A stretch of DNA of 32,000 bases from Nitrosomonas europaea (GCF_900167395.1 NZ_FUWK01000007.1:1-32000), one strand, 5' to 3'. Shown: positions 17,796-32,000, counted from the stretch's first letter. Program-made: numbers and translations. The notes: generated from the letters alone by a model not told the origin.

Positions 17796-20108
17796 TCAAA
17801 ACATCGGACTTTCCGTCTGATCAGTGAACTCGGGATCCTGGAAAGAGTAATCCATTTCAGGCGGAAGCTGCTCCTGAAAGAAGTATTCATTGAGTGTTCC
17901 GAATATATCTCTCATGCCTGTCTCAGGATTGATTTTCGCTACGATGATGCCTTTGGGAGATGAAGTTTTTGCAACCGGTATCGATTTGAGTGCCGTGGCC
18001 ATGTAGTCGATCCAGATGGGTAAAGCGGCCTGCCCTCCGGTTTCTCTGTTTCCCATGGATCTGGGTTCATCGAATCCCATCCAGGTAACCGCCACCAGAT
18101 CTTTCTGATAACCGCAGAACCAGGCATCGACCGCGTTACTGGTCGTCCCCGTTTTTCCTGCAATGTCATTACGTTTGAGCGCTCTGGCCCGGGCAGCGGT
18201 TCCTCTCTGGACGACATCCTGCATCATGCTGGTCATCAAAAATGCATTGCGCGGGTCGATGACCTGTTTGGCATTTCGGCCGGCAGTGGCAAAGCGGGCC
18301 TGTTCGATGATGTTTCCGTGTTCATCCTCGATCCGCTCAATGAAATAGGGATGAATGTGGTAGCCCCCATTGGCAAAAGTGGCATAGCCGATGGCCATCT
18401 GCATCGGTGTGGCCGAGCCGGCACCGAGTGCCATGGGAAGGACTGCCGGGTGATGTTTCTTATCGAAACCGAAACGGGTGGCGTAATCCTGCGCGTAAGC
18501 CGGGCCAATCGCCTGAAGAATACGGACCGATGCCAGGTTTTTGGAATGTGTCAGTGCGGTGCGCATTCTGATCGGGCCGCTGAACTTGCCATCATAATTC
18601 CTGGGTTCCCAGGCTTTGCCGCCAGTTTGCTCCGGCCCCAGATACAATGGTGCGTCATTGATGATCGTAGCCGGGGTAAAGCCTTTTTCAAGTGCGGCAG
18701 AATAAACGAACGGTTTGAAGCTCGATCCCGGCTGGCGCCAGGCTTGCGTGGCATGATTGAATTTGTTGAGGTGGTAGTCAAACCCGCCTACCAGTGCACG
18801 AATGGCGCCATTGTTCGGGTCCATGGCAACCAGTGCAGCTTCGATTTCTGGCAGCTGAACGATCTGCCAGCTACCTTTTTCCGTTTTCTTCACCCGGATC
18901 AACGCACCAGGGCGTATCCGCTTCTCGCCGATTTTGGGATCGTTACTGAGAAATCGGTGAGCTGCTTTCAGACCATCCCCTGTGATCCGGATGGTTTCGC
19001 CATTTTTGCGGAAGGCTTCGACGGCACCGGGCGTAGCAGACAGAACGACTGCTGCCAGGATGTCATCGCTGTTGCCGATATCCTGCATGATGTCCTGCAA
19101 TGCTTCGCGGTCCTTGAGATCTTTTGGCAGTTTCAGGAATGCTTCCGGGCCGCGGTAACCATGCCGGGCGTCATACTCCATGACGCCTTTGCGCAACGCA
19201 CGGTAGGCTGCTTCCTGATCCGTTTTTCTCAGCGTGGTATAGACCTTGATTCCGCGAGTGTAGGCTTCTTCACGGTAGCGGTCGTAAACGATCTGCCGCA
19301 CCATTTCTGCGACGTAATCAGCAGGCATGGCGAAGACTTTCACCCGGCGATGAATGGCAATCGCAGTCTCTTTTGCCCGTGCAAACTGTTCAGCAGAGAT
19401 ATATCCGAGTTCGTGCATCCGTTTCAGCACATACTGCTGCCGGGTTTTTGCCCGTTCCAGGTTAACGATCGGATTGAACCGGGAAGGAGCCTTGGGAAGT
19501 CCGGCCAGCATGGCTGCTTCCGCCAGATTGATGTCGGTGAGCTGTTTACCAAAATAAGATTGTGCTGCGGAAGAAAAGCCGTAACTGCGCTGTCCGAGAT
19601 AAATCTGATTGATATACAGCTCGAGGATCTGATCTTTCTCTAAACTGTGCTCGATTTTGAAAGCCAACAAGGCTTCACTGAATTTTCTGGTAAGCGTTTT
19701 TTCCTTGGTCAGAAAGAAATTGCGTGCCACCTGCATGGTAATGGTGCTTGCCCCCTGATGCGCGCCGCCCGCCTTGAAATTGGAATAGATGGCACGTAAA
19801 ACACCAATGTAATCCACCCCGTAATGCTGATAAAAACGATCATCCTCGGCTGCCAGAATCGCTTGTTTGAGTGATTTGGGCACTTCCTCGATTTTGATGA
19901 AATCCCTGCGTTCCTCACCGAATTCACCAATCAGCAAATTGTCGGCACTGTAAATTCTCAGCGGGATTTTGGGACGGTAATCAGTCAGTGTTTCAAGACT
20001 GGGCAGAGAGGGCAGCGTAACCAGGGCAGCAAACACCACCAGCAATGCGGCAAGCAAACCAGTGGCCAGAGCAACCAGGAAAAAACGGTAAAACCAGCGG
20101 AATAACAT
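17796..20108 (-). CDS. mrcA: Penicillin-binding protein 1A (bifunctional glycosyltransferase/transpeptidase)
   Basis: GT51 motifs EDDRFYQH and RKFSEALLA. Transpeptidase motifs SSFKP (SxxK), HSKN and KTGT. There is an N-terminal TM anchor, and the gene is divergent from pilM as in many proteobacteria. Confidence 0.95.
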   Translation of the reverse strand: MLFRWFYRFFLVALATGLLAALLVVFAALVTLPSLPSLETLTDYRPKIPLRIYSADNLLIGEFGEERRDFIKIEEVPKSLKQAILAAEDDRFYQHYGVDYIGVLRAIYSNFKAGGAHQGASTITMQVARNFFLTKEKTLTRKFSEALLAFKIEHSLEKDQILELYINQIYLGQRSYGFSSAAQSYFGKQLTDINLAEAAMLAGLPKAPSRFNPIVNLERAKTRQQYVLKRMHELGYISAEQFARAKETAIAIHRRVKVFAMPADYVAEMVRQIVYDRYREEAYTRGIKVYTTLRKTDQEAAYRALRKGVMEYDARHGYRGPEAFLKLPKDLKDREALQDIMQDIGNSDDILAAVVLSATPGAVEAFRKNGETIRITGDGLKAAHRFLSNDPKIGEKRIRPGALIRVKKTEKGSWQIVQLPEIEAALVAMDPNNGAIRALVGGFDYHLNKFNHATQAWRQPGSSFKPFVYSAALEKGFTPATIINDAPLYLGPEQTGGKAWEPRNYDGKFSGPIRMRTALTHSKNLASVRILQAIGPAYAQDYATRFGFDKKHHPAVLPMALGAGSATPMQMAIGYATFANGGYHIHPYFIERIEDEHGNIIEQARFATAGRNAKQVIDPRNAFLMTSMMQDVVQRGTAARARALKRNDIAGKTGTTSNAVDAWFCGYQKDLVAVTWMGFDEPRSMGNRETGGQAALPIWIDYMATALKSIPVAKTSSPKGIIVAKINPETGMRDIFGTLNEYFFQEQLPPEMDYSFQDPEFTDQTESPMF

Positions 20109-20270
20109 TCAGAGGCAGTGTATGTGTCGTGTAGGGTGAAAAATGATCTAGAACGAAATTATAAAGGGTATATCAATCGTTATTGTATGAATTAACTCAT
20201 TCATTAAGCTGTCAGAATCGGCCTCAGTTGCAGTACCCCGTCCGGATGAAAATATTCCGGTCAACACGTT

Positions 20271-21422
20271 ATGCAAGTGAGAGCAGAAATGGCCTTGAGT
20301 TCATCCATCCTGAAAAAACCTCTCGATATCAAGTTTGATATCGACTTCAGCCTGCTGGCAGGCACCGCTCGCATGTTGGGGGTGGATATCAGCGCCTCGT
20401 CGATCAAGGTGGTGGAACTTTCCAGGAAAGGCAGGTTGCCTCATTCATACCGCCTGGAGCGTTATGTGATCGAGCCCATGCCGGTGGATGCACTACAGGA
20501 TGGCGGAATCAACCAGATCGAACAGGTAAGCGAATGTCTCCGGCGTGCTGTGAAACGGATGGGGGCACGGCAGAAAAAAATTGTCATGGCATTGCCGCTG
20601 ACTTCTGTCATTACCAAGAAAATCAACGTTCCCGCCGGTTTGCGTGAGGATGATCTGGAATTTCAGGTTGAAACAGAAGCCAATCAGTATGTGCCATTTG
20701 CGCTGGATGAGGTCAATCTCGATTTTCAGGTGATCGGGCCGGTTCCCGGTCATCCGGAAGAAGTGGAAGTACTGCTGGCAGCCGCCCGCAAGGATAAGGT
20801 GGAAGATCGGGTGGCAACGGCAGTATCTGCCGGACTGAAAGTGATGGTGATGGATGTCGAGCAGTTTACTGCGCAGGCCGTATCTGCCAGAGCGATCAGA
20901 CAGCAACTGCCGGATGATGGCAAGGACAAAGTGATTGCACTGATAGACATTGGTGCGAGCGTTACCCGGGTCAATGTGCTGTTGAACGGCGAATCCGTTT
21001 ATATGCGTGATCTGTCTTTTGGTGGAGATCAGCTGACACAGGAAATCCAGAACCAGTTCAATCTTTCCCCCGAAGAAGCCGAGATTGCCAAGCGCAACGG
21101 AACATTGCCGGAAAATTACCGGAATGATGTGTTGCAACCCTTTTGTGAAACGGTGGCACTGGAAGTGTCCCGGGCACTTCAGTTCTTTTTTACTTCTACC
21201 CAGTATATCCAGGTGGACTACATTTTTCTGTCAGGAGGGTGCGCAGCCATCCCCGGCCTGGAAGAGATCATCTCTGAACGTACCAAAGTGATTACCCAGA
21301 TCATCAATCCATTTGCTGACATGGAACTGTCCGGCCGGGTCGCACCGAGACAACTGAAAATGGATGCTCCCGTTCTGTTGACGGCCTGCGGCCTGGCCAT
21401 GAGAGGATTTGACCCGTCATGA
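20271..21422 (+). CDS. pilM: Type IV pilus assembly protein PilM (actin-like ATPase fold)
   Basis: LGVDISASSIKVVELS N-terminal motif and its position as first gene of pilMNOPQ. The true start is uncertain (ATG 20271, 20289 or 20373). Confidence 0.9.
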   Translation: MQVRAEMALSSSILKKPLDIKFDIDFSLLAGTARMLGVDISASSIKVVELSRKGRLPHSYRLERYVIEPMPVDALQDGGINQIEQVSECLRRAVKRMGARQKKIVMALPLTSVITKKINVPAGLREDDLEFQVETEANQYVPFALDEVNLDFQVIGPVPGHPEEVEVLLAAARKDKVEDRVATAVSAGLKVMVMDVEQFTAQAVSARAIRQQLPDDGKDKVIALIDIGASVTRVNVLLNGESVYMRDLSFGGDQLTQEIQNQFNLSPEEAEIAKRNGTLPENYRNDVLQPFCETVALEVSRALQFFFTSTQYIQVDYIFLSGGCAAIPGLEEIISERTKVITQIINPFADMELSGRVAPRQLKMDAPVLLTACGLAMRGFDPS

Positions 21423-22030
21423 TACGCATCAATCTGCTTCCACACCGTGAACTCAAACGTAAAGCGCGTCAGCAGCAGTTTGCCGTACTGGCCGGCCTCA
21501 CTGTGATACTGGGTATGCTGATCATATGGGGAGTACACGAAATGGTACTGGATAAAATCGATTACCAGAATGGGCGCAATCAGTATCTGAAGGATGAGAT
21601 CGCCGTGCTGGACCGGCAGATTGCCGAGATCAGATCGATCAGAGAAAAAATTCAGGAAATGCTGGCACGCAAAGGGATCGTCGAATCACTGCAAGGCAAT
21701 CGTGCCAAGGTGGTGCACATGCTGGACGAGGTGGCCAGGCGAGTACCGGAAGGGGTTTATCTGAAGGGCTTCAAGCAGACGAACGAGCATCTCCGTCTTG
21801 CCGGCTATGCCCAGTCCAATGCCTGGGTATCGACACTGATGCGCAATCTGGATGCTTCATCCTGGATGGAATCGCCATTGCTGATCGAAATCAAGGCGGC
21901 TACCGCAAATGGTATCAGGCTCAGTGAATTCGATCTGAATGTCAGGTTGACCGAGTTACCGGAAGAAGGCAGTCATACCGGAGGAGAGGAAATGACATCA
22001 AAAATTACCGCAGCGGCGGGACAACCATGA
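21419..22030 (+). CDS. pilN: Type IV pilus assembly protein PilN
   Basis: Hallmark N-terminus MIRINLLPHRE and a single TM segment. An ATGA overlap joins it to pilM. Confidence 0.88.
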   Translation: MIRINLLPHRELKRKARQQQFAVLAGLTVILGMLIIWGVHEMVLDKIDYQNGRNQYLKDEIAVLDRQIAEIRSIREKIQEMLARKGIVESLQGNRAKVVHMLDEVARRVPEGVYLKGFKQTNEHLRLAGYAQSNAWVSTLMRNLDASSWMESPLLIEIKAATANGIRLSEFDLNVRLTELPEEGSHTGGEEMTSKITAAAGQP

Positions 22031-22677
22031 ACCTGCTGGAAGAGTTGCGTCATGTCAATCCTAATGAGCCGGGAAGCTGGCCGGCTGTAATTAAGGCGGG
22101 TGCGCTTGCACTGTTGCTGGCGACCCTGATGGTGGCCGGTTATTTTCTGGACTGGGAAGAACAGTGGACGACGCTGGAGCAGGTGCGGGAAGAAGAAAAT
22201 ACACTCAGAAGTACTTTTCTTGCCAAAAAGACCAGTGCAGTCAATCTCGATGTTCTGCGCCAGCAACTGGCAGAAGTGCAGCAAACGCTGGGCACCTTGC
22301 TCAAGCAATTGCCCAACAAATCTGAACTGGATGCGCTGCTGGTGGATATCAACCGGGCCGGGCTGGGACGGGGGTTGCAGTTCGAGCTGTTCAAACCTGA
22401 TGCCAGGGAGACGGTGCGGGAGTTCTATGCCGAACTGCCGGTTACCATCAGAGTAACGGGCAATTATCACGATATCGGTGCTTTTGCCAGCGATGTGGCT
22501 CAGTTGCCGCGTATCGTCACGCTGCACAATATCGAGATCACTCCAGGGAAAGATCATCAGCTGATATTCAATGCGACGGCGAAAACCTTTCGTTACCTCG
22601 ACGATGAGGAAATCGCAGCACATAAAAGAGAAATGTCGGAGAAAGACAAACAGAAGAATCCCAAGGGGGCGTCATGA
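22027..22677 (+). CDS. pilO: Type IV pilus assembly protein PilO
   Basis: One TM segment and a coiled-coil plus ferredoxin-like region. Its operon position and ATGA overlaps on both sides support the call. Confidence 0.88.
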   Translation: MNLLEELRHVNPNEPGSWPAVIKAGALALLLATLMVAGYFLDWEEQWTTLEQVREEENTLRSTFLAKKTSAVNLDVLRQQLAEVQQTLGTLLKQLPNKSELDALLVDINRAGLGRGLQFELFKPDARETVREFYAELPVTIRVTGNYHDIGAFASDVAQLPRIVTLHNIEITPGKDHQLIFNATAKTFRYLDDEEIAAHKREMSEKDKQKNPKGAS

Positions 22678-23204
22678 GCAGCCGGTTCAGCTGGTGGATA
22701 GCTGTAATGATGTTGTCATTGGTGGGCGCATGCAGCCAGGAAGGTTATGAAGATCTGGAGTCTTTTGTCAGGGAATCAGGCGCTGGATTGAAGGGAAAAG
22801 TGGATCCCCTGCCTGAAATCAGGCCGCTGGAGCATTTCGTTTATCAGGCGTTTGACATCCCTGATCCCTTCAGCAATCGCAAAAACAAGCCGGGGAAACC
22901 GGATCGCAACGAACTGGAACCTGATCTGAAGCGACCGAAGGAAGCCCTGGAGAGTTTTCCGCTGGAGAACCTCGTCATGGTGGGTTCGCTGCGGCGCGGA
23001 AATAATGTGTTTGGTCTGGTCAGAGCGCCGGATAACTCGGTTCACCGCGTCAGGACCGGTAATTATCTGGGCCAGAATTTCGGCCTGATTACAGGCGTTT
23101 CCGAAGTGGAGATCAAATTGAGAGAGATTACACGGGATAGCGGGGACGAATGGAGCGAACGGGCCAGTGTACTCATGCTGCAAACTCAGGAGCAGAAGCA
23201 ATGA
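22674..23204 (+). CDS. pilP: Type IV pilus assembly lipoprotein PilP
   Basis: Lipobox-like LVGAC after the signal sequence. Operon position is between pilO and pilQ. Confidence 0.85.
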   Translation: MSSRFSWWIAVMMLSLVGACSQEGYEDLESFVRESGAGLKGKVDPLPEIRPLEHFVYQAFDIPDPFSNRKNKPGKPDRNELEPDLKRPKEALESFPLENLVMVGSLRRGNNVFGLVRAPDNSVHRVRTGNYLGQNFGLITGVSEVEIKLREITRDSGDEWSERASVLMLQTQEQKQ

Positions 23205-25357
23205 ACTGGATAACGGGAAACAAAGAGTACGAGAATCGCGTCATCGGGGTTATTCACCGGATCTGGCAATGCCTGCCAGCCTGTATTTTGCTGCTTGCAT
23301 GGGGCTATGTTCAGACTGTAACCGCATCAGTCAATACACTGCGTGCAGTGGATGTCTCGTCACAAACGGATGGCAGGACGGTTGTCAGGGTGACTCTGGA
23401 TAAACCGGTTGAAGTGCCACCTGCCGGAGTGCTGCTGAATGATCCTGATCGCCTTTATTTCGATCTGGAGCAGATGGACAGCGCACTGGGAAAGTCCGGC
23501 AGAATTTCCGGCCGGGGTGTCATCAAAAATATCGATGTCGTACCTGCCGAGGGCCGCATTCGTCTGGTGATGAATTTGTCAAACACGGCGGCCTATGAAA
23601 CCGATGTCGAAGGCAATCATTTATTGATATCGCTCAGGAGCAATGAAATCTCTGGCGGAACTCCCGCCCGTCCGTCCGTTTCGACTTCCAGTCCGGCTAG
23701 AAGTGAAACGATGAGTCTGCGCGATATCGACTTTCACCGGGGTACCCAGGGTGAAGGCAGAGTGGAAGTAGAACTTTCGCAGCCGGGTGCAGTAATCAAT
23801 GTCCATAGTCACGGCAGCAGATTGCTGGTTGAATTCATGAAGGCCTATCTGCCCCCTAATCTCGAACGGCGGTTGAATGTACTGGATTTTGCCACACCAG
23901 TGCAGTCAGTCGAAACGGTTGCCCGGGATGGCAACGTGCAGATGATCATCGAGCCGAAAGGGCGCTGGGAACATACTTCCTGGCAAACCGGCACCAGTTT
24001 CGTGGTGGAAATCAGACCGATGGCTGAAGCCGAAGATATACCCATTCACAAGAAACTGATCGATGGGGGCTATACCGGTGAAAAACTTTCACTTAATTTC
24101 CAGGATGTCGAGATTCGTTCGATTCTGCAGGTGATTGCAGACTTTACTGACCTGAATATCATCGCCAGTGACTCCGTCAAAGGTAATCTGACTTTACGGT
24201 TGAGGGATGTTCCCTGGGATCAGGCGCTGGATATCGTGCTGCAAACGAATGATCTCGATAAACGCAGGGCAGGCAATGTGATTTTCATTGCGCCCCGGGA
24301 AGAAATGGCTGCCCGCGAAAAGCTGCAACTGGAGCAGAACCAGCAAATAACCGAGCTGGAAGTACTGCAAACCGAGGCTTTCAAACTGAATTACAGAACC
24401 GCCAGCTCGATTCCGCTCAAAGGCATTCTGAGTCAGCGCGGTTCGGTGGAAGTGGATGACATCAGCAATACGCTGACCGTTACCGATATTCCCACGCGGC
24501 TGGCAGAAGTGGCAAGACACGTCGCCAACCTCGATACTCAGGTGCGGCAAGTCATGATCGAAACCCGGATCGTCGAAGCAACCGATACATTCAGCCGTAA
24601 CCTGGGAGCTCGTTTCGGGGTGCAGAACGCCACCCGGATCGGCAGCGAGACCAACGGGCGGCGGCTGGGGATTTCCGGCAATTTAGGTAATTCCAGCGGA
24701 TTGGCTGGTGGCACAGTATCCCCTTCTGGCGGGGATAATCTCAACGTCAATCTGCCGGCAGCTGCACTGGCCGGTGTTGCGGGTGGACCGGCCGCACTGG
24801 GCCTGAGCCTGATCAAGATCAACAATGGCACGCTAATCAATCTTGAACTCTCCGCACTGGAGTCGGACAGCAAGGGCCGAGTGATTGCCAGCCCGCGTCT
24901 GGTGACGGCCAATCGCGTGGAGGCAAGTATCGAACAGGGTACTGAAATTCCGTTCCAGACCATCAGCGTGACACGGCCGCAGATCCAGTTCAAAAAGGCC
25001 GTGCTTGGCCTCAAAGTGACACCGCAAATCACCCCTGATGACAACATCATCATGAAACTGCAGGTCAATCAGGATACCCGGGGAGAAAATACACCCGCCG
25101 GACCGGCGATCGACACCAAGCAGATCGTTACCGAAGTGCTGGTGGAAAATGGTGGCACAGTCGTCATCGGCGGTATTTTCGAACAGGTCGAGAAACAGGA
25201 TCGTAATCAGGTACCACTTCTGGGAGACATACCCGTACTGGGGAATCTGTTCAAAAACACTGCGAAACGGGACGATAAACGCGAATTGCTGATCTTCGTC
25301 ACCCCGCGCATCCTAAACGAAAACCTCAGTAACAATATTCGATCTGCATTAAATTGA
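23201..25357 (+). CDS. pilQ: Type IV pilus secretin PilQ
   Basis: ATG 23201 overlaps the pilP stop (ATGA). There are two AMIN-like N-terminal repeats (LRAVDVSSQ...VVRVTLDKP and LRDIDFHRG...VEVELSQPG) and a secretin C-domain (VPLLGDIPVLGNLF, ELLIFVTPRIL). The track start at 23150 is rejected. Confidence 0.95.
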   Translation: MNWITGNKEYENRVIGVIHRIWQCLPACILLLAWGYVQTVTASVNTLRAVDVSSQTDGRTVVRVTLDKPVEVPPAGVLLNDPDRLYFDLEQMDSALGKSGRISGRGVIKNIDVVPAEGRIRLVMNLSNTAAYETDVEGNHLLISLRSNEISGGTPARPSVSTSSPARSETMSLRDIDFHRGTQGEGRVEVELSQPGAVINVHSHGSRLLVEFMKAYLPPNLERRLNVLDFATPVQSVETVARDGNVQMIIEPKGRWEHTSWQTGTSFVVEIRPMAEAEDIPIHKKLIDGGYTGEKLSLNFQDVEIRSILQVIADFTDLNIIASDSVKGNLTLRLRDVPWDQALDIVLQTNDLDKRRAGNVIFIAPREEMAAREKLQLEQNQQITELEVLQTEAFKLNYRTASSIPLKGILSQRGSVEVDDISNTLTVTDIPTRLAEVARHVANLDTQVRQVMIETRIVEATDTFSRNLGARFGVQNATRIGSETNGRRLGISGNLGNSSGLAGGTVSPSGGDNLNVNLPAAALAGVAGGPAALGLSLIKINNGTLINLELSALESDSKGRVIASPRLVTANRVEASIEQGTEIPFQTISVTRPQIQFKKAVLGLKVTPQITPDDNIIMKLQVNQDTRGENTPAGPAIDTKQIVTEVLVENGGTVVIGGIFEQVEKQDRNQVPLLGDIPVLGNLFKNTAKRDDKRELLIFVTPRILNENLSNNIRSALN

Positions 25358-25385: not shown

Positions 25386-25410
25386 AAGGGGGCTTGATAT
25401 AGCCCCCTTT
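25386..25410 (+). terminator. Rho-independent terminator after pilQ and left boundary of the accessory operon
   Basis: The stem aagggggc (25386-25393) pairs with gccccctt (25402-25409) around the 8-nt loop ttgatata. TTTATCATT follows, and an A-rich run upstream makes it potentially bidirectional. Confidence 0.6.
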
Positions 25411-25457: not shown

Positions 25458-28355
25458 ATGGTGCAGCAACTTCTGACGCCGCATCAAAGCCAGTACATCG
25501 CCTGGCAGCTTACTCGCCGGGCAGCCAAAGACAGCGTAGAGTCGCTGGCCTCGACGTTGGTTGATTCTCAGGTTGACCTCAACCCGCACCAGGTCGATGC
25601 AGCTCTCTTCGCATGCCGTAATCCGCTGTCGCGTGGTGTGATCCTGGCGGACGAGGTAGGGTTGGGCAAGACGATTGAAGCGGGGCTGGTCATTTCCCAA
25701 CATTGGGCAGAGCGGCGTCGCAAGATGCTCATCATCGTGCCTGCCAACCTGCGCAAGCAATGGCACCAGGAATTGCAGGACAAGTTCAATCTTCAGGGGT
25801 TGGTCCTCGAAGCGAAAAACTATAACGCCATGCGCAAGGAAGGTGTCACGCAACCCTTTCTGCATGCAGGCGGGCCGATCATCTGTTCCTACCAGTTCGC
25901 CAAAGCCAAGGCCGATGACCTCAGGCGCATCCATTGGGATCTGGTGGTCATGGATGAAGCCCACCGTCTGCGCAATGTCTACAAGAACGGCAACGTCATT
26001 GCCCGGACGATCCGCGATGCGCTGGAGCACGTCGATGCGAAAGTCCTGCTGACGGCCACACCGCTGCAAAACACCCTGCTGGAGCTTTACGGCCTGGTGA
26101 GCATGATAGACGAGCGTGTGTTTGGCGATCTCGATAGTTTCCGAACTCAATTTTCTGGCGTCAGAACCGAACAATCCAACCGGGCACTGCGAGAGCGGTT
26201 GACGCCGCTTTGCAAGCGCACGCTGCGCCGGCAAGTCCAACAGTACGTGCCGTATACCGCACGTATCGCCATCGTCGAAGAATTCACGCCCAGCCAGGAA
26301 GAGCAGCAGCTCTCCGCATTGGTCGCCGATTACCTGCGCCGCCCTAACCTCAAGGCACTGCCTGAAGGCCAGCGTCAACTGATCTCGTTGGTGCTATGGA
26401 AGCTACTGGCCTCGTCCAGCCACGCCATTGCCGGGGCGCTGGAGACCATGGCCAATCGTCTTCAAGGACAATTGGATGAGTTGCCTGATGTCCCTGACCT
26501 GACAGAGTCGCTGGATGACGACTACGAAGGACTGGATGAAACTGCCGACGAGTGGAATGGCGCAACCGCCAATGATGCCGATGCCAGCGCCAACGAACGA
26601 GCAGCCATTGCCGACGAAGCGGCCGAACTTCGACGCTTCAAGGAGTTGGCTACGAGCATTCGACAGAATGCCAAAGGGCAGGCGCTGCTGACAGCACTGG
26701 ACAAGGCTTTTGCCGAGCTGGAGCGTTTAGGAGCGAGCAAGAAGGCCATCATTTTCACCGAGTCCAAGCGCACCCAGAATTACCTGCTTTCCCTGTTGGC
26801 TGAAACACCCTACGGCATCGTGCTGTTCAACGGCACCAACACCGATGCCAGGGCGCAGGCCATTTACAAAGACTGGCTGCAACGGCATGAAGGCAGCGAT
26901 CGCATTACTGGCTCCAAAACCGCTGACACCCGCGCCGCGCTGGTTGAGCACTTCAAGGAGCGCGGCACCATCATGATCGCCACGGAGGCAGGCGCGGAAG
27001 GCATCAACCTCCAGTTCTGCTCTCTGGTCATCAATTACGACCTGCCGTGGAATCCACAGCGTATCGAACAGCGCATCGGTCGCTGCCACCGTTACGGGCA
27101 AAAGCACGATGTGGTGGTGGTCAACTTCGTGGACCGCAGCAACGAGGCGGATGCCCGTGTCTATCAGCTGCTGTCGCAGAAGTTCAAGCTGTTCGAAGGC
27201 GTATTCGGCGCCAGTGACGAAGTGCTGGGAGCCATTGGCTCCGGTGTGGATTTCGAGCGGCGGATCGCCGCCATCTACCAAAATTGTCGCGAACCCGAAG
27301 AAATCCGCAGCCGCTTCGAAGACCTCCAGCGCGAGCTTTCCAGCGAGATCGACGAAGCGATGCTCAGAACACGGCAGCTTCTGCTGGAGAATTTCGACGA
27401 GGAGGTGCAGGAGAAACTGCGCATCCACAGCCAGGACAGCCAGGCAGTGCTGAACAAGTACGAGCGCCTGCTGATGGACTTGAGCCGCACGGAATTGCGG
27501 GATCATGCCCGCTTTGATACTGCCGAAGAGGTCAATGGCTTTGTCCTGCACAGCCTGCCCGATGGGCTAGGTCTCGCCACTGGCAGCCGAGAACAGGCAG
27601 TGATGGCGGGGCGCTATGAACTGCCCAGACGCAGCGGCGATGCGCATCTTTACCGTATGGGCCATCCCTTGGCGGAATGGGCCATTGAGCGCGCCAAGGC
27701 AAGAGACCTACAAGCCCCTGCACGATTGGCGTTCGACTACGCCGCCTATGGCAAACGGCTCGTCAGCCTTGAAAAATGGCGCGGCCAGTGTGGCTGGCTG
27801 AGCGTGACCCTTTTGTCCGTCGAAACCCTGAACGATCAGGAGCAGCACCTGGTTGTTTCCGCCTGCACCCAAGCGGGGGAAGCGCTGCCAGAGGACGATC
27901 CAGAAAAACTGCTGCGCCTGCCAGCGCAGGTCGAAGGCGACGCGCACCTGCAAGTATGTGCCGAGCTCGTCGCCAACGTCGAAAGCCGGAAAAGCGTACT
28001 TCTGCGCGGGATCAATCAGCGCAATCTGGGCTACTTCGAGCAAGAGGTGCAAAAGCTCGATACTTGGGCCGATGACCTGAAGCTCGGGCTGGAGCAGGAA
28101 ATCAAGGCCATCGACGGCGAGATCAAGGAGGTGCGCCGCACCGCCGCTGCGTCACCCACGCTGGAAGAAAAGCTGGCACATCAGAAACGCCAGCGAGAAC
28201 TGGAAACCAGGCGCAGCAAACTACGCCGCGACCTGTTTGCGCGGCAGGATGAGGTGGAAGAGCAGCGGAACAAGCTGATTGGGGAGTTGGAAGAGCAGCT
28301 CAAGCAGCAGGTAGCGGAACGCATGTTGTTTACCGTCGAATGGGAGTTGACGTAA
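25458..28355 (+). CDS. SNF2-family (SF2) DNA helicase/translocase with a ~330-aa C-terminal extension ending in a coiled coil
   Basis: Motif I ILADEVGLGKT (~25641-25673), motif II DEAH (25953-25964), motif III LLLTATPLQN, motif V ATEAGAEGINLQ, and motif VI QRIGRCHRYGQ (~27069-27101). The C-terminus EIKAIDGEIKEVRR...RQDEVEEQRNKLIGELEEQLKQQ is heptad-like. Confidence 0.9.
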   Translation: MVQQLLTPHQSQYIAWQLTRRAAKDSVESLASTLVDSQVDLNPHQVDAALFACRNPLSRGVILADEVGLGKTIEAGLVISQHWAERRRKMLIIVPANLRKQWHQELQDKFNLQGLVLEAKNYNAMRKEGVTQPFLHAGGPIICSYQFAKAKADDLRRIHWDLVVMDEAHRLRNVYKNGNVIARTIRDALEHVDAKVLLTATPLQNTLLELYGLVSMIDERVFGDLDSFRTQFSGVRTEQSNRALRERLTPLCKRTLRRQVQQYVPYTARIAIVEEFTPSQEEQQLSALVADYLRRPNLKALPEGQRQLISLVLWKLLASSSHAIAGALETMANRLQGQLDELPDVPDLTESLDDDYEGLDETADEWNGATANDADASANERAAIADEAAELRRFKELATSIRQNAKGQALLTALDKAFAELERLGASKKAIIFTESKRTQNYLLSLLAETPYGIVLFNGTNTDARAQAIYKDWLQRHEGSDRITGSKTADTRAALVEHFKERGTIMIATEAGAEGINLQFCSLVINYDLPWNPQRIEQRIGRCHRYGQKHDVVVVNFVDRSNEADARVYQLLSQKFKLFEGVFGASDEVLGAIGSGVDFERRIAAIYQNCREPEEIRSRFEDLQRELSSEIDEAMLRTRQLLLENFDEEVQEKLRIHSQDSQAVLNKYERLLMDLSRTELRDHARFDTAEEVNGFVLHSLPDGLGLATGSREQAVMAGRYELPRRSGDAHLYRMGHPLAEWAIERAKARDLQAPARLAFDYAAYGKRLVSLEKWRGQCGWLSVTLLSVETLNDQEQHLVVSACTQAGEALPEDDPEKLLRLPAQVEGDAHLQVCAELVANVESRKSVLLRGINQRNLGYFEQEVQKLDTWADDLKLGLEQEIKAIDGEIKEVRRTAAASPTLEEKLAHQKRQRELETRRSKLRRDLFARQDEVEEQRNKLIGELEEQLKQQVAERMLFTVEWELT

Positions 28356-31300
28356 TGGCAAAACGAGAAATTTCCCGAGGTTCGCTCTGGAATCAATGGG
28401 ATCTGCATGTGCACACGCCAGCTTCATTCCACTGGTTGGGGAAGAAATTTGAGGGCGACCTGTCATCTGATGTCAATAAGGCGCTAGTGGATGAAATGAT
28501 TGATGCCATGAACAAGGCAGAACCTGCGGTTTTTGCCATCATGGATTATTGGACATTCGATGGTTGGTTCGCGCTCAAGCGACGGCTTGCAGAACAAGAC
28601 TCTCCTAAGCTTCACAAGAAAGTGTTCCCTGGAATCGAGCTGCGCCTTTCTGCCCCTACTGCGATAAGACTTAATGCTCATGTTGTTTTTTCGGATGAAA
28701 TCCCCGACCAACACCTCAAGGATTTCTTGGCAGATCTTAAGATTGAGCGGACTGGCCGTTCTGTCTCCAAAGATGCACTTATTGCCCTGGCCAGAGCAAC
28801 TGCCCCGGACATGCTTGAAAAGAAAGGGCATAAAAAAGATGTAGTAGTTACCGATGATGCGGATGCCCTTTTGGCCGGGTACAAGTTGGCTGAGATTAAA
28901 GCTGATAGCTACAAAGATGCTATATCAAAGGTCCCCAATGGATTGGCGATTGGTTTTATGCCATATGACACGAGTGATGGCTTGGCGGAGGTCAAATGGG
29001 AGGAGCATTACTCATATTTCCTTGGGCTTTTGGAGTCATCGCCAATTTTTGAATCCAGAAATCTGGAGCTTAGGTTCGCCTTCCTTTGTGAGGAGACGGA
29101 GAAGAACAAGGGCTGGATCGGAAATTTCAAGCATGGTCTGAAAGGAATTCCAAGGCTTGTGGTTGCTGGCAGTGATGCGCACTGCTTTATTGGCACTCCT
29201 GGAGATAACGACAAGCGCGGCTATGGTGACTTCCCGTCAGGAAAGAAAACCTGGATTAAAGCCGATCCATCGTTTCGTGGCCTAAAGCAAGCCATTCTTG
29301 AGCCTGCCAAACGCTCTTTCATTGGGCAGAAGCCCCCAAAATTACAAGAGATCGAATCCAACAAGGTTTATTACATCGACTCGCTGGAGGTCGCTAAGAC
29401 TGGCAGCGAGTCGGATATTGGTAAATGGCTGGATGGCTGTGACATTCCGCTGAACCCCGATCTTGTTGCAGTCATTGGTAACAAGGGCAGTGGTAAGAGT
29501 GCGTTAGCGGATGTCATTGCGACACTTGGAAATTCCAAGCAATCAAGGCACTTCAGCTTTTTGAGGAAAGAACGTTTTCTTGGGAAGGCTGGCGAGCCTG
29601 CACGCCACTTCACAGGTACTTTGACATGGTGCGATGAAAGCACTGAGGCGCGGCCACTCAATGAGTTACCTTCGGAAGAGAAGCCGGAACTGGTTCGCTA
29701 CATCCCTCAAGGCTACTTCGAGGAACTTTGCAATGAACACGTTTCTGGAAAATCGAATGCATTCGAGAAAGAACTGCGTGCCGTTATCTTTTCGCACACA
29801 AGTGAGGAGATGCGGCTTGGAGCGCTCGACTTCGATCAGTTAACTGAACAGCAGGAGCAATCGCTCAGAAACCGACTGGGCGAGTATCGCAAGGTGTTGT
29901 CATCCATCAATGCTGATATTGTGCGCATTGAAGAGCAGCTTCAGCCTATTGAGTTAGAAAGGTTGAATGAACTTCTTTTGCTGAAGATCAAACAAATTGA
30001 TGAGCATGAAAAGCTAAGGCCAGTGGAGGTCGCCGCGCCAGCAGAAGCGCTAGATCCAGAACAAAAGAAAGCTTCGGAAGAGCTGGTTTCAATAAACCAA
30101 AAAATAGAATCATCCCAAAAGCGTTCACAAGAGATTGCGTTGGAGAACACCGATCTCGCCAAGCGGCAAAAGGCTATCACCAATATCCGCGAACAGTTGA
30201 GATTATTTCAGCGCGCATTCGAGCAGGCGCAACAGACTGTCTCCGATGACCTGAAAATTCTGGGTATCACATGGCCTGATTTAGCTGTTATTGATATCAA
30301 ACAGCATATCCTTGATGAAAAATCGGCAGAAATTTCCAAGAAACAGGAACAGTTGAAGAGCGAAGCTGAAAAGATTGCCGAAGAGCTGAAGGAGAGTGTC
30401 GCATCGCAGCAAAGTTTTACGGCGAAATTGAATGCTCCCCAGCAGCAATTCGAAGCGTACCAGCAACAACTTTCCGAATGGAACAAAAAGCTGGCTTATC
30501 TGAAAGGTTCACCTACCGAGCCCGAAACCAAGGTCGGCTTGGAAACTCGTATTGAACAGATCAAGATGTTGCCGGAACAGCACACGGAGTTGGAAGAAAA
30601 ACGCTTGCGCCTATCTGGTGAGATTTTCGACACATTAGACGCACAGCGCAAAGCACGCGAAGAGCTTTTCAAACCGGTGCAAGATCTGATCCAGAAAAAC
30701 AGCTTGATACGTGAGGATTACAAGCTGCAGTTTCAGGCAACGCTTGCAGCCTCTTCGGAGGCTATCGCCGATCAGTTGTTTGCGCTAATCAAGCAGACTT
30801 GGGGGGATTTCCGAGGTCAGGACGAGGCGCCTTCGACGATTAGAAAACTGTTTGACAACTACGATTTGAACTCCAAAGAGGGGGCTCTGGCATTCATCGC
30901 CGCCTTGCAGGAAAAGGTTCAAGAAGCCTCAACGCTCTCCGGTGCGACTGTTGGAATTTTTAATCTGGTCAAGAAGGGGCAGTCTGCTATATCAGTATAT
31001 GACTTGATCTTTGGGTTGAACTTCCTTGAGCCGAGATATTCGTTGCTGTTCCAGGACACGCAGATTGAGCAGCTATCGCCCGGTCAACGCGGTGCATTAC
31101 TGCTGATTTTCTATTTGTTGGTGGACAAGGGTAAGACACCGATTATCCTCGACCAGCCAGAAGAAAACTTGGACAATGAGACAGTATTCCGGTTGCTTGT
31201 TCCGGTGCTTTCCGAAGCCAAGAAGCAACGGCAGATCATCATGGTCACGCACAATCCGAACTTGGCGGTTGTGTGCGATGCAGAGCAAATCATCTACGCA

Positions 31301-31438
31301 AAGTTTGATCGTGCTGACAATTCAACGGTCAGCTATGAATCCGGCGCTATCGAGAACTCCAATCTGAATGGAATTGTTGTAACAATTCTAGAAGGGACGA
31401 AGCCGGCATTCGACAACCGTTCCGGGAAGTATCACTAA
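28355..31438 (+). CDS. Fusion protein: N-terminal PHP-family metal-dependent phosphoesterase plus Rad50/SbcC/SMC-like coiled-coil ABC ATPase
   Basis: ATG 28355 shares one base with the helicase TAA (TAATG). PHP motifs are WDLHVHTP (28406-28414 codes HVH), GIELR, NAHVVF and GSDAH (29168-29182). ABC motifs are Walker A GNKGSGKS (29477-29500), signature LSPGQRG (31073-31093), Walker B IILDQPE (31142-31162) and H-loop VTHNP (31244-31258). About 530 aa separate Walker A from the signature, and that stretch is rich in heptad-like E/K/Q/L sequence. Confidence 0.85.
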   Translation: MAKREISRGSLWNQWDLHVHTPASFHWLGKKFEGDLSSDVNKALVDEMIDAMNKAEPAVFAIMDYWTFDGWFALKRRLAEQDSPKLHKKVFPGIELRLSAPTAIRLNAHVVFSDEIPDQHLKDFLADLKIERTGRSVSKDALIALARATAPDMLEKKGHKKDVVVTDDADALLAGYKLAEIKADSYKDAISKVPNGLAIGFMPYDTSDGLAEVKWEEHYSYFLGLLESSPIFESRNLELRFAFLCEETEKNKGWIGNFKHGLKGIPRLVVAGSDAHCFIGTPGDNDKRGYGDFPSGKKTWIKADPSFRGLKQAILEPAKRSFIGQKPPKLQEIESNKVYYIDSLEVAKTGSESDIGKWLDGCDIPLNPDLVAVIGNKGSGKSALADVIATLGNSKQSRHFSFLRKERFLGKAGEPARHFTGTLTWCDESTEARPLNELPSEEKPELVRYIPQGYFEELCNEHVSGKSNAFEKELRAVIFSHTSEEMRLGALDFDQLTEQQEQSLRNRLGEYRKVLSSINADIVRIEEQLQPIELERLNELLLLKIKQIDEHEKLRPVEVAAPAEALDPEQKKASEELVSINQKIESSQKRSQEIALENTDLAKRQKAITNIREQLRLFQRAFEQAQQTVSDDLKILGITWPDLAVIDIKQHILDEKSAEISKKQEQLKSEAEKIAEELKESVASQQSFTAKLNAPQQQFEAYQQQLSEWNKKLAYLKGSPTEPETKVGLETRIEQIKMLPEQHTELEEKRLRLSGEIFDTLDAQRKAREELFKPVQDLIQKNSLIREDYKLQFQATLAASSEAIADQLFALIKQTWGDFRGQDEAPSTIRKLFDNYDLNSKEGALAFIAALQEKVQEASTLSGATVGIFNLVKKGQSAISVYDLIFGLNFLEPRYSLLFQDTQIEQLSPGQRGALLLIFYLLVDKGKTPIILDQPEENLDNETVFRLLVPVLSEAKKQRQIIMVTHNPNLAVVCDAEQIIYAKFDRADNSTVSYESGAIENSNLNGIVVTILEGTKPAFDNRSGKYH

Positions 31439-31439
31439 T

Positions 31440-32000
31440 ATGGCAAGTAACCAAAAACTCGAACTCACCTGGATTGGAAAGGAGAAGCGGGCCAAGCTAG
31501 AACCGCGCATCCTGCTCGAAGATCCTGAGAAGTCTTATCATGCCAAGCAGCGTGTTTCGGAGAGTGACGTCTTCGACAACCGGCTGATTTTCGGTGATAA
31601 CCTGCTGGCTCTGAAGGCATTGGAGCAAGAGTTTGCGGGTGAGGTGAAGTGTGTATTTATTGATCCTCCTTACAACACCGGCAGCGCGTTCACACACTAT
31701 GACGACGGGTTGGAGCATTCCATCTGGCTGGGATTGATGCGGGATCGGCTGGAGATCATTAAGCGGCTATTGTCGAATGATGGTTCGTTGTGGATCACAA
31801 TTGATGACAATGAATGCCATTATCTCAAAGTGCTATGCGATGAGATTTTTGGACGAGCCAACTACAAGACTACGATTACATGGCAAAGAAAATACAGCGT
31901 CAGTAATAATTTTCAGGGTATAGCAAGTATCTGCGATTTCGTGCTTGTTTATTCCAAAAGTGAAGCATTCAAAAATAATCTGCTTCCGAGAAGCGAGGAG
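31440..32000 (+). CDS. Type III Mod-like / beta-class (N6-adenine or N4-cytosine) DNA methyltransferase, 3'-truncated by the window edge
   Basis: This ORF is not in the ORF track; I translated it by hand. ATG 31440 lies 1 nt after the ATPase stop. The product begins MASNQKLELTWIGKEKRAKLEPR and contains NRLIFGDNLLALKAL and VFIDPPYNTG (motif IV, DPPY). The frame stays open to base 32000. The LxWxGK ... GDNL ... IDPPYNTG order matches type III Mod proteins such as EcoP15I Mod. Confidence 0.88.
   Translation, partial: MASNQKLELTWIGKEKRAKLEPRILLEDPEKSYHAKQRVSESDVFDNRLIFGDNLLALKALEQEFAGEVKCVFIDPPYNTGSAFTHYDDGLEHSIWLGLMRDRLEIIKRLLSNDGSLWITIDDNECHYLKVLCDEIFGRANYKTTITWQRKYSVSNNFQGIASICDFVLVYSKSEAFKNNLLPRSEE

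What the first reader, a model, noticed from the sequence alone, without database searches (positions are those of the whole stretch)
28355..31438. Single-chain PHP nuclease-like domain fused to a Rad50/SbcC-like coiled-coil ABC ATPase
The first ~280 residues carry the ordered PHP motifs: HxH (WDLHVHTP), an acidic motif (GIELR), a histidine (NAHVVF) and the terminal DxH (GSDAH). The rest is an ABC ATPase whose Walker A (residue ~375) and signature/Walker B/H-loop (residues ~907-968) are split by ~530 residues, much of it heptad-like. That split is the Rad50/SbcC/SMC head-plus-coiled-coil layout. Established biology pairs Rad50/SbcC with a separate Mre11/SbcD calcineurin-type phosphoesterase, and OLD/Gabija/PARIS-type defence ATPases use a TOPRIM nuclease. 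Here a PHP phosphoesterase sits in cis and at the N-terminus. PHP folds act as exonucleases or phosphatases in PolX, YcdX and RNase AM. The architecture therefore suggests a self-contained DNA-end or DNA-tether sensing nuclease, which would be an unusual effector design.
Basis: partly seen in the sequence, partly recalled or inferred. Interest (0 to 1): 0.8.

Follow-up and report, generated by a model that had tools for sequence, protein, structure and literature searches.

The report
Ppl-like PHP nuclease–ATPase defence gene
The gene really does encode a PHP-type phosphoesterase fused to a Rad50/SMC-like ATPase with a coiled coil, but this design is already known: it belongs to the curated TrlF family, which includes the characterised anti-phage protein Ppl, so it is an uncharacterised member of a known kind sitting in a defence island.

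Summary
A confident AlphaFold model of residues 1-345 matches only PHP-fold structures in its top 21 Foldseek hits (RNase AM, Pol III alpha, PolC). The full model matches MukB, Rad50, Smc and JetC heads with coiled coils. The architecture is not new. The protein is 100% identical to a RefSeq "TrlF family AAA-like ATPase" from Nitrosomonas and scores 673 bits on NCBIfam NF045780 (cut-off 350). E. coli Ppl also passes that model, and its PHP domain and ATPase head align with this protein's. There is no Zn hook. The Walker B catalytic Glu is an invariant Gln, also in Ppl, and two of nine canonical PHP metal ligands are missing. The gene sits between an SNF2 helicase and a type III restriction-modification pair. 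In related cassettes that slot holds Gabija, AIPR or other cargo. It is most likely a self-contained, Ppl-like defence nuclease. Interest is low to moderate.

The parts
25386..25409 (.). GC-rich hairpin in the 100-nt gap between the pilQ stop (25357) and the SNF2 start. It is the likely upstream edge of the inserted defence operon.
   Evidence: Terminator-like stem of 9 pairs, 6 of them G-C. ORF boundaries.
25458..28355 (+). SNF2-family helicase, 965 aa, DrmD-like, translationally coupled to the PHP-ATPase gene.
   Evidence: Pfam SNF2-rel_dom 9.1e-35 and Helicase_C 2.8e-21. NCBIfam DISARM_DrmD_b 663 bits, below its cut-off of 950. PADLOC DrmD 6.7e-198. Present in 30 of 31 loci whose TrlF is >=65% identical and that have at least 3 kb of upstream sequence, in most within 24 nt.
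28355..31438 (+). TrlF-family PHP-ABC ATPase gene, 1027 aa plus stop.
   Evidence: NCBIfam NF045780 673 bits against a cut-off of 350, covering the full profile 1-944. 100% identical to RefSeq 'TrlF family AAA-like ATPase [Nitrosomonas]'.
28379..29245 (+). PHP-fold phosphoesterase domain (residues 9-297). Conserved H18, H20, D64, E95, H109, D274, H276, with a helical insert at about 113-197.
   Evidence: AF2 on residues 1-345: pLDDT 92.7, pTM 0.90. The Foldseek top 21 PDB hits are all PHP structures; RNase AM 9etk scores 1.7e-7. hhalign to E. coli RNase AM aligns the motifs, E 2.6e-4. hhalign to the Ppl N-terminal domain gives 98.5% probability. Conservation.
29246..29359 (+). Highly conserved connector (residues 298-335, TWIKADPSFRGLKQAILEPAKRSFIG) between the PHP barrel and the ATPase head. 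Ppl has it too.
   Evidence: W300 and R320 are invariant; K302, G309, L310, E316, G324 and P327 are invariant or nearly so. It aligns to Ppl 'CWLKMSSPDFDGLRHALLDPE'.
29375..29824 (+). N-terminal lobe of the ABC head (residues 341-490), with Walker A at 375-382 (nt 29477-29500) and Q-loop Q452.
   Evidence: Pfam SMC_N spans 363-976. The family profile hits Rad50 5f3w at the Walker A region.
29831..30721 (+). Antiparallel coiled-coil insert (residues 493-789), about 130 residues per arm. It has a conserved break (P556, P562 against W709, G718) and a variable apex at 637-649 with no CxxC.
   Evidence: AF2 helices 493-553, 568-636, 650-717, 726-789. 3.5-residue hydrophobic periodicity in three of the four helices, and large insertions in each arm at 570 and 671 in some homologues. 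Cys positions.
30722..31435 (+). C-terminal lobe of the ABC head (residues 790-1027). Signature LSPGQRG at 907-913 (nt 31073-31093), Walker B IILDQPE at 930-936 (nt 31142-31162) with Gln in place of the catalytic Glu, D-loop D940, H-loop at 964-969 (nt 31244-31261).
   Evidence: Alignment to the AriA E->Q trap mutant 8v46 and to Rad50 'ILDEPT'. hhalign to the Ppl C-terminus gives 99.9% probability.
31441..32000 (+). Start of the type III methyltransferase (Mod, 567 aa), cut off by the end of the window. On the full contig the operon continues with YhcG/PDC-S02, RhuM/PDC-S05 and type III Res.
   Evidence: Sequence shows a DPPY motif. Full contig L001. PADLOC MTase_III 2.7e-218 and REase_III 1.1e-213.

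Best explanation
The gene encodes a self-contained, Ppl-like anti-phage or anti-plasmid nuclease of the TrlF family.

Shown here: an N-terminal PHP-fold metal phosphoesterase is joined through a conserved connector to an SMC/Rad50-type ABC head. The two lobes of that head are separated by an antiparallel coiled coil of about 130 residues per arm.

Inferred: ATP or another NTP binds the heads. Walker A, Q-loop, signature, D-loop and H-loop are all intact. The Walker B catalytic Glu is an invariant Gln, so nucleotide binding and head engagement should be long-lived and hydrolysis slow. That would make the head a nucleotide-level switch rather than a motor.

By analogy with Ppl, as summarised in reviews: bound NTP keeps the PHP exonuclease off. 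When infection drains the NTP pool and free DNA ends appear, the PHP site, probably binuclear here, degrades the DNA.

The gene occupies a variable cargo slot inside an SNF2-helicase plus type III restriction-modification cassette and is co-transcribed with it. It most likely acts as an extra, independent defence layer rather than as an obligatory subunit of that cassette.
For: Family: NF045780 scores 673 bits against a cut-off of 350, full length. E. coli Ppl also passes this model at 477 bits.

Homology to Ppl in both domains: hhalign gives 98.5% probability over 240 columns for the PHP domain and 99.9% for the ATPase C-lobe, including the shared 'LDQPE'.

PHP fold: with conserved ligands. 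SMC-like head plus coil.

Published Ppl behaviour: an ssDNA 3'-5' exonuclease inhibited by NTPs bound to its PHP and NTPase domains and triggered by 3'-OH ends (PMC12904381; PMC13434339; both cite Xu et al., Mol Cell 2026).

The gene behaves as cargo. Close SNF2 homologues (>=50% identity) always carry Mod and Res (14/14), but only 5 of the 15 closest (>=65% identity) carry a close TrlF homologue like this one, and 2 more carry a Ppl-like relative. In other cassettes the same slot holds Gabija-like OLD-TOPRIM plus UvrD, AIPR, an AAA+ protein with an S8 protease, or another SMC-like ATPase.

GC content steps from 56-60% in SNF2 to 47-49% in TrlF and back to 56-57% in Res.

Relatives (TrlF, Ppl and Spaf_1101 types) lie on 1153 plasmid records, 830 of them conjugative. 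Distribution across phyla is patchy.
Against: No activity has been measured for this protein or its subclade.

It scores only 98.6 bits on the Ppl equivalog model (cut-off 1000), has a larger PHP insert and a longer coil than Ppl, and lacks two canonical PHP ligands that Ppl partly keeps (Ppl has the motif II 'DH'). Substrate and polarity could therefore differ.

Its closest solved PHP relatives are RNase AM and Cv1693, which act on RNA 5' ends and on nucleotides.

Within its own clade (>=65% identity) TrlF is always found with SNF2, Mod and Res (30/31, 28/28, 28/28). It is translationally coupled to both neighbours. Both facts also fit a functional partnership.

The primary Ppl paper could not be read, so the mechanism rests on secondary summaries.
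Confidence: 0.55

Rival explanations
1. TrlF is an integral subunit of a four-component, methylation-based system, SNF2-TrlF-Mod-Res, a hybrid of DISARM and type III restriction-modification. In this reading the SNF2 motor and Res recognise or cut unmethylated DNA, and TrlF clamps the resulting ends and degrades them.
For: In genomes whose TrlF is >=65% identical, SNF2 lies upstream in 30/31 loci, mostly within 24 nt, and Mod and Res lie downstream in 28/28. The four proteins diverge together: TrlF 55-61% goes with SNF2 49-57% and Res 55-63%. The unit sits in different genomic contexts; no other locus has pilQ alongside. Start and stop codons overlap or nearly touch.
Against: The association runs one way only. 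Most close SNF2-Mod-Res cassettes lack TrlF and carry unrelated defence genes in the same slot. Other TrlF clades lack SNF2, Mod and Res altogether. Ppl works as a single gene. The GC mosaic suggests TrlF was swapped in.
Confidence: 0.25
2. The PHP domain is not a DNA exonuclease. It acts on RNA 5' ends or on nucleotides, like RNase AM/TrpH or the pAp phosphatase Cv1693, so the protein is an ATP-gated RNase or nucleotide phosphatase effector.
For: The best structural matches are RNase AM (9etk, 7ug9), BAD_1165 and Cv1693 (2yb1), ahead of the polymerase PHP domains. The only significant sequence-profile link to a solved PHP protein is to RNase AM. The third-metal ligands are altered.
Against: The homologous PHP domain of Ppl is reported to be an ssDNA 3'-5' exonuclease. 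The partner domain is of the SMC/Rad50 type, which typically binds DNA. The neighbours all act on DNA.
Confidence: 0.12
3. It is a housekeeping single-chain analogue of SbcCD/Mre11-Rad50 used for DNA repair rather than defence.
For: SMC/Rad50-like head and coil. In a few distant loci TrlF is followed by SbcD-like and SbcC/YhaN-like genes.
Against: Patchy, horizontally transferred distribution with many plasmid copies. It is embedded between restriction-modification genes and candidate defence genes. No Zn hook and no catalytic Glu.
Confidence: 0.05

Closest known systems
Ppl anti-phage protein (E. coli; NCBIfam NF042955; mechanism in Xu et al., Mol Cell 2026, as cited in PMC12904381 and PMC13434339)
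   Same: Same architecture: an N-terminal PHP domain, the conserved 'W-x-K...P-x-F-x-G-L' connector, and an ABC head split by a coiled coil. Same Walker B 'DQPE'. Homology holds in both domains. Both proteins pass the TrlF family model.
   Different: This protein scores only 98.6 bits on the Ppl model, against a cut-off of 1000. It is 1027 aa against 891, with a larger helical insert in the PHP domain and a longer coil. Motif II is D-Y instead of Ppl's D-H. It sits in an SNF2/type III restriction-modification operon rather than standing alone (one search shows the Ppl plasmid context). Its activity is untested.
TrlF of Photorhabdus laumondii (temperature restriction locus trlR-trlF-trlG; PMC7554251)
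   Same: This protein gave its name to the NCBIfam family that the window protein passes. It was also once annotated 'histidinol phosphatase', reflecting the PHP domain.
   Different: The partners differ: TrlG (AlbA_2 + HATPase_c_4) and TrlR there, SNF2 and type III Mod/Res here. In Photorhabdus no temperature-tolerant mutant mapped to trlF, so its role there is also unknown.
Rad50/SbcC, and the SMC, MukB, JetC, LmuB and RecN heads
   Same: An ABC head with Walker A and signature/Walker B lobes separated by an antiparallel coiled coil. These are the best sequence-profile and fold matches. Pfam SMC_N scores above its gathering threshold.
   Different: No CxxC Zn hook or hinge. The coil is only about 130 residues per arm. 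The Walker B Glu is replaced by Gln. The nuclease is a PHP domain fused in cis rather than a separate calcineurin-type Mre11/SbcD.
RNase AM/TrpH(YciV) and Cv1693-type PHP phosphoesterases
   Same: Best fold matches to the N-terminal domain. The HxH, Glu, His and DxH motifs align.
   Different: Those are stand-alone enzymes of about 290 aa with a full trinuclear ligand set. This domain lacks the 'SDG' Asp and the motif II His, carries a helical insert of about 85 residues, and gives no Pfam PHP hit.
OLD/GajA (Gabija) and AriA (PARIS) defence ABC ATPases
   Same: Defence-associated ABC ATPases coupled to a nuclease. They share the AAA_21/AAA_15-type C-lobe. A Gabija-like gene pair occupies the same operon slot in locus L098.
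   Different: Their nuclease is TOPRIM, not PHP. They have a 'DEPE' Walker B with the catalytic Glu; the AriA 8v46 structure with 'DQPE' appears to be an engineered trap mutant of the 'DEPE' chain 8v45.

Membership tests
TrlF family AAA-like ATPase (NCBIfam NF045780) | Whole-protein HMM score at or above the curated cut-off of 350 bits, with full-length coverage | tested here: met
   673.1 bits; residues 8-1027 match profile positions 1-944 of 944. RefSeq gives the identical protein this name.
TrlF family AAA-like ATPase (NCBIfam NF045780) | N-terminal PHP-like domain followed by an ABC/SMC-like ATPase in one chain | tested here: met
   AF2 and Foldseek on the domain and on the full chain.
Ppl anti-phage protein (NCBIfam NF042955 equivalog) | HMM score at or above the cut-off of 1000 bits | tested here: not met
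   98.6 bits. The positive control, E. coli Ppl, scores 1330 bits.
Ppl anti-phage protein (NCBIfam NF042955 equivalog) | NTP-inhibited ssDNA 3'-5' exonuclease activity triggered by 3'-OH ends, and single-gene phage defence | not testable with these tools
   Needs biochemistry and plaque assays. Known for Ppl only from secondary summaries.
PHP superfamily | Distorted (beta/alpha)7-barrel PHP fold | tested here: met
   The model has pLDDT 92.7 and pTM 0.90. The top 21 PDB matches are all PHP proteins with probability 0.96-1.00. This rests on a predicted structure, not a solved one.
PHP superfamily | Core metal ligands: HxH (motif I), Glu, His, and the terminal DxH | tested here: met
   H18, H20, E95, H109, D274 and H276 are present, conserved in 122-135 of 135 representatives, and aligned to the RNase AM motifs.
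PHP superfamily | Full nine-residue trinuclear ligand set (Asp after motif I, His of motif II, His of beta5) | tested here: not met
   F25 aligns with the 'SDG' Asp and Y65 with the motif II His (His in only 20/135). H218 is conserved in 55/135. Assigning these residues to the third metal site draws on general knowledge of the PHP family.
PHP superfamily | Match to Pfam PHP (PF02811) | tested here: not met
   No hit even at E<=10 for residues 1-340. The family profile also finds no PDB PHP chain. RNase AM, used as a control, does hit PF02811.
Rad50/SbcC | ABC head split by a long antiparallel coiled coil | tested here: met
Rad50/SbcC | CxxC zinc hook at the coiled-coil apex | tested here: not met
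   The only cysteines are at 245, 277, 362, 426, 459 and 974, none within 493-789. The apex is not conserved.
Rad50/SbcC | Walker B Asp-Glu with a catalytic glutamate | tested here: not met
   D933-Q934, with Gln in 135/135. It aligns with the Glu of Rad50 'ILDEPT'.
Rad50/SbcC | Adjacent Mre11/SbcD calcineurin-type nuclease partner | tested here: not met
   The operon here is SNF2, TrlF, Mod, YhcG, RhuM, Res. SbcD-like neighbours occur only in a few distant loci.
DISARM (for the surrounding operon) | DrmD passing its model cut-off, together with DrmA, DrmB and DrmC | tested here: not met
   DrmD_b scores 663 bits against a cut-off of 950. No gene in the operon carries the DUF1998 or PLD domains expected of DrmB and DrmC.
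Type III restriction-modification (for the downstream genes) | Mod methyltransferase and Res helicase-nuclease encoded together | tested here: met
   PADLOC MTase_III 724 bits and REase_III 710 bits on the contig that extends the window.

The most novel reading that the evidence does not exclude
The conserved frame SNF2 helicase-[variable slot]-type III Mod-Res may be an undescribed methylation-based defence cassette, a DISARM/type III hybrid, whose internal slot recruits interchangeable effector genes: TrlF, Ppl-like proteins, Gabija, AIPR, or an AAA+ protein with an S8 protease. In the TrlF-bearing version the PHP-SMC protein would cooperate physically with the SNF2 motor or with Res, taking over DNA ends that restriction creates, rather than acting alone.
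Probability: 0.2. Interest if true: 0.55.

Novelty: new member of a known kind. Interest (0 to 1): 0.25.

Why it matters
It matters little as a discovery. The PHP-plus-SMC-like ATPase design already has a curated family name and a characterised relative, Ppl.

Three things are still useful. (1) The result gives a solid structural and profile basis for calling the N-terminal domain of TrlF proteins a PHP domain, which Pfam does not detect. (2) The whole TrlF/Ppl clade carries a natural Glu-to-Gln change in Walker B. That makes the "nucleotide-sensing switch" idea directly testable. (3) An SNF2/type III restriction-modification frame is shown to host swappable defence genes. That frame could serve as a search anchor for new defence genes.

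Tried and rejected
Searches on the N-terminal 340 residues that found nothing:
- Pfam at E<=10 gave no PHP hit.
- phmmer against PDB gave only chance matches to herpesvirus gH.
- A 24-sequence profile against PDB gave no hits.
PHP identity therefore rests on AF2 plus Foldseek, on hhalign to RNase AM, and on the transitive link through Ppl-like proteins that hit Pfam PHP_C and the NCBIfam CehA/McbA metallohydrolase model.

A solved Ppl structure was looked for and not found, either by sequence profile or by fold.

The primary Ppl paper (doi 10.1016/j.molcel.2025.11.011) is not held.

Literature searches for PHP with SNF2 and type III restriction, and for 'PHP-ATPase', 'PHP-ABC' or 'Spaf_1101', found nothing relevant.

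Systems considered and rejected for the operon:
- Hma, which centres on a DUF499 ATPase.
- MADS, where there is only a weak mad3 hit and the composition is different.
- MANTIS/Gao_RL.
- Canonical DISARM, because the DrmD cut-off is not met and no DrmABC is present.

A Zn hook was rejected because the coil contains no cysteine.

Ligand geometry, and whether the coil is extended or folded at its break, could not be checked.

Full report
**1. The observation**

The ORF exists as described. It runs from 28355 to 31438 on the + strand and encodes 1027 aa. Its ATG shares one base with the TAA stop of the upstream gene (TAATG), and a GGAG lies 8 nt upstream. Its own stop is followed 2 nt later by the ATG of the next gene.

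- HxH at H18/H20
- GIELR, giving E95
- NAHVVF, giving H109
- GSDAH, giving D274/H276
- Walker A at 375-382
- Q-loop Q452
- signature LSPGQRG at 907-913
- Walker B ILDQPE at 931-936
- H-loop H966

I aligned the query with 134 family representatives that share 30-55% identity with it. H20, D64, E95, D274, H276, K381, Q452, D933 and H966 are invariant or nearly so. H18 is kept in 126/135 and H109 in 122/135.

The family is large. It has 1509 cluster representatives at E<=1e-30 in a library clustered at 50% identity. Chance is excluded.

**2. The N-terminal domain**

Sequence methods alone do not detect a PHP domain:
- Pfam finds nothing for residues 1-340, even at E<=10.
- phmmer against PDB finds nothing meaningful.
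- A 24-sequence profile against PDB finds nothing.

Structure prediction settles the question. An AlphaFold2 model of residues 1-345 has pLDDT 92.7 and pTM 0.90. Its 21 best Foldseek matches in the PDB are all PHP-fold proteins:
- RNase AM (9etk at 1.7e-7, and 7ug9)
- BAD_1165 (3o0f, 3e0f)
- Cv1693 (2yb1)
- the PHP domains of PolC, Pol III alpha and mycobacterial DnaE

Amidohydrolases follow only at E>0.01.

Profile-sequence comparison with E. coli RNase AM gives E 2.6e-4 at 42% probability. It places WDLHVHTPAS on YDLHSHTTAS, AIMDYWT on AITDHDT, FPGIELR on IPGVEIS and NAHVV on EIHIV.

That alignment also shows two canonical ligand positions that are not kept. The Asp of 'SDG' aligns with F25. 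The motif II His aligns with Y65, which is His in only 20 of 135 representatives. From general knowledge of PHP enzymes these residues belong to the third metal site. A binuclear centre is the likeliest reading; this is inference.

A helical insert of about 85 residues (113-197) lies between strands 4 and 5.

**3. The rest of the protein**

Several results place it among the SMC/Rad50-type ABC ATPases:
- Pfam SMC_N spans residues 363-976 and scores above its gathering threshold.
- The family profile's best PDB hit is Methanocaldococcus Rad50 (5f3w) at 1.8e-6.
- The full-length AF2 model has pLDDT 90.1 and pTM 0.74.
- That model matches MukB, Rad50, Smc, JetC, Lamassu LmuB and RecN heads with their coils at E from 1e-9 to 1e-4.

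The coil is made of helices 493-553, 568-636, 650-717 and 726-789, about 130 residues per arm.
- It has a conserved discontinuity, P556/P562 facing W709/G718.
- Three of the four helices show 3.5-residue hydrophobic periodicity.
- Some homologues carry large insertions in each arm, at 570 and at 671.
- The apex at 637-649 is not conserved, and the coil contains no cysteine, so there is no Zn hook.

About 300 of the 530 residues between Walker A and the signature motif are coil, not "much of" 530.

The Walker B motif is D933-Q934-P-E936, with Gln in 135 of 135 representatives. This position aligns with the catalytic Glu of Rad50 'ILDEPT'. It gives the same 'DQPE' as the AriA chain of 8v46-8v49. 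That chain differs from the 'DEPE' chain of 8v45 at this position and appears to be an engineered trap mutant. All the other nucleotide-binding motifs are intact. I infer a head that binds nucleotide and engages but hydrolyses slowly, that is, a switch.

**4. What is known**

The protein is 100% identical to RefSeq "MULTISPECIES: TrlF family AAA-like ATPase [Nitrosomonas]". It scores 673 bits over the full length of NCBIfam NF045780, whose cut-off is 350.

The family is named after trlF of the Photorhabdus temperature restriction locus. There the protein was annotated as a histidinol phosphatase, and no phenotype mapped to it (PMC7554251).

I fetched E. coli Ppl (WP_015059139.1) from plasmid pMS6193B and compared it directly:
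- Ppl scores 477 bits on the TrlF model, so it lies inside this family, and 1330 bits on its own model.
- The TrlF N-terminal profile aligns to the Ppl N-terminus at 98.5% probability, E 3.6e-15, over 240 columns, with every motif in register.
- The C-lobe aligns at 99.9% probability, including 'LLLDQPEDDLD'.

[quoted passage not shown] NTPs bound to its PHP and NTPase domains hold it off, and it is triggered by 3'-OH ends made by a phage endonuclease (PMC12904381; PMC13434339; bioRxiv 10.64898/2026.05.12.722862). All three cite Xu et al., Mol Cell 2026, which I could not read. Ppl was first listed among the defence genes of reference 20 of PMC13223576; from memory that is Gao et al. 2020.

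TrlF, Ppl and Spaf_1101 proteins match on 1153 plasmid records, 830 of them conjugative.

**5. Context**

The same protein on longer contigs shows a six-gene operon, tightly coupled and all on one strand, inserted after pilMNOPQ:
- SNF2 helicase (965 aa)
- TrlF (1027 aa)
- N6_N4 methyltransferase (567 aa)
- DUF1016/YhcG (346 aa)
- RhuM (348 aa)
- ResIII protein (912 aa)

PADLOC calls the methyltransferase and the ResIII protein type III Mod and Res, at 724 and 710 bits. It calls YhcG and RhuM the candidate defence families PDC-S02 and PDC-S05. The SNF2 protein resembles DISARM DrmD but scores below the model cut-off, 663 against 950 bits.

A scan of species-representative genomes returned 74 loci. 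Among those whose TrlF is >=65% identical to the query, and that hold enough flanking sequence, 30 of 31 have this SNF2 upstream, mostly within 24 nt, and 28 of 28 have Mod and Res downstream. Between 0 and 3.9 kb of variable genes lie between TrlF and Mod, for example AIPR. None of these loci has pilQ as a neighbour.

More distant TrlF proteins, at 29-54% identity, lack these partners. A few are followed instead by SbcD-like and SbcC/YhaN-like genes.

The reverse search changes the picture. It started from the SNF2 protein and scanned metagenome contigs.
- SNF2 homologues at >=50% identity always keep Mod and Res (14/14).
- Only 5 of the 15 closest carry a close TrlF homologue.
- In the others the same slot, directly after SNF2, holds different genes:
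  - an OLD-TOPRIM ATPase plus a UvrD helicase, that is, Gabija-like (L098)
  - AIPR (L086, L091, L100)
  - an AAA+ protein plus an S8 protease (L082; L090 has ORFs of matching size)
  - a 771-aa SMC-like ATPase (L084)
  - Ppl-like PHP-SMC proteins of 932-938 aa that pass the TrlF model and hit Pfam PHP_C (L087, L093)

GC content also steps, from 56-60% in SNF2 to 47-49% in TrlF and back to 56-57% in Res.

The stable frame is SNF2...Mod-Res. TrlF is one of several interchangeable defence cargos in its internal slot.

**6. Mechanism**

Best explanation (confidence 0.55): a self-contained, Ppl-like defence nuclease.
- Shown: the PHP fold with conserved core ligands, the SMC-like head and coil, homology to Ppl, and the defence-island setting.
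- Inferred: nucleotide binding to a head that hydrolyses slowly keeps the PHP site off, and NTP depletion together with free DNA ends releases exonuclease activity.

Rivals:
- An obligatory subunit of a four-part SNF2-TrlF-Mod-Res system (0.25). Strict co-occurrence and co-divergence within the clade favour it. The one-way association and the swappable slot count against it.
- An RNase AM-like RNA or nucleotide phosphoesterase effector (0.12).
- A housekeeping SbcCD analogue (0.05).

**7. Verdict**

The protein is an uncharacterised member of a known, named family whose architecture and likely mechanism are already published for Ppl.

Modest new points:
- structural proof of the PHP fold for TrlF proteins
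- the clade-wide natural Glu-to-Gln change in Walker B
- the incomplete ligand set
- the SNF2/type III restriction-modification cassette with a defence-cargo slot

Interest: 0.25.

Noticed in passing
window 25458-32000 and its continuation on L001 7104-19604; related loci L082-L101: SNF2 helicase...type III Mod-Res forms a conserved frame whose internal slot carries different defence genes in different organisms: TrlF, Ppl-like PHP-SMC proteins, a Gabija-like OLD-TOPRIM plus UvrD pair, AIPR, an AAA+ protein with an S8 protease, or an SMC-like ATPase. I found no description of this frame in the papers searched.
   Followed up: partly
window 25458-31438; L001 7104-19604: GC content is a mosaic inside a single operon: SNF2 56-60%, TrlF and the first kb of Mod 47-49%, the rest of Mod plus YhcG 55-58%, Res 56-57%. 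This suggests recombination joints at the SNF2/TrlF boundary and inside Mod.
   Followed up: partly
L001 14786-16869, just beyond the window's end: Two genes sit between the type III Mod and Res genes with overlapping start and stop codons: DUF1016/YhcG (PD-(D/E)XK-like, PADLOC PDC-S02) and RhuM (PDC-S05). Other loci have nothing or other genes there.
   Followed up: partly
L032 13190-14440; L040 14277-17888; also L041, L065, L070: In some distant TrlF loci the gene is followed by an SbcD/Mre11-like metallophosphoesterase (about 416 aa, starting MSLRFLHTADIHLGK) and, in L041 and L065, then by an SbcC/YhaN-like ATPase of about 1170-1200 aa (L040 has the ATPase without the SbcD-like gene). A PHP-SMC protein thus sits next to a classical two-gene Mre11-Rad50-like pair. 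These were identified by reading the sequences only, not by profile search.
   Followed up: no
window 27990-28352 (SNF2 residues about 845-965): The C-terminal 120 or so residues of the SNF2 protein are rich in E, K, R and Q and look like coiled coil (translation). The DrmD_b profile does not cover this region. It could be a docking element for a partner. Not analysed.
   Followed up: no
window 25386-25409: A strong GC-rich hairpin (9 pairs, AAGGGGGCT...AGCCCCCTT) lies in the gap between pilQ and the SNF2 gene. It is probably the pilQ terminator and marks the upstream edge of the inserted operon.
   Followed up: no
window 28340-28357: An alternative in-frame ATG at 28340 would add 5 residues and overlap the SNF2 gene by 16 nt. 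Homologue alignments and RefSeq favour the start at 28355.
   Followed up: yes
window 17796-25357: Ordinary housekeeping genes lie upstream: PBP1a (mrcA-like, - strand) and pilM, pilN, pilO, pilP, pilQ. The longest contig carrying the identical TrlF protein is 2,812,094 bp. From memory that equals the Nitrosomonas europaea ATCC 19718 genome size.
   Followed up: no
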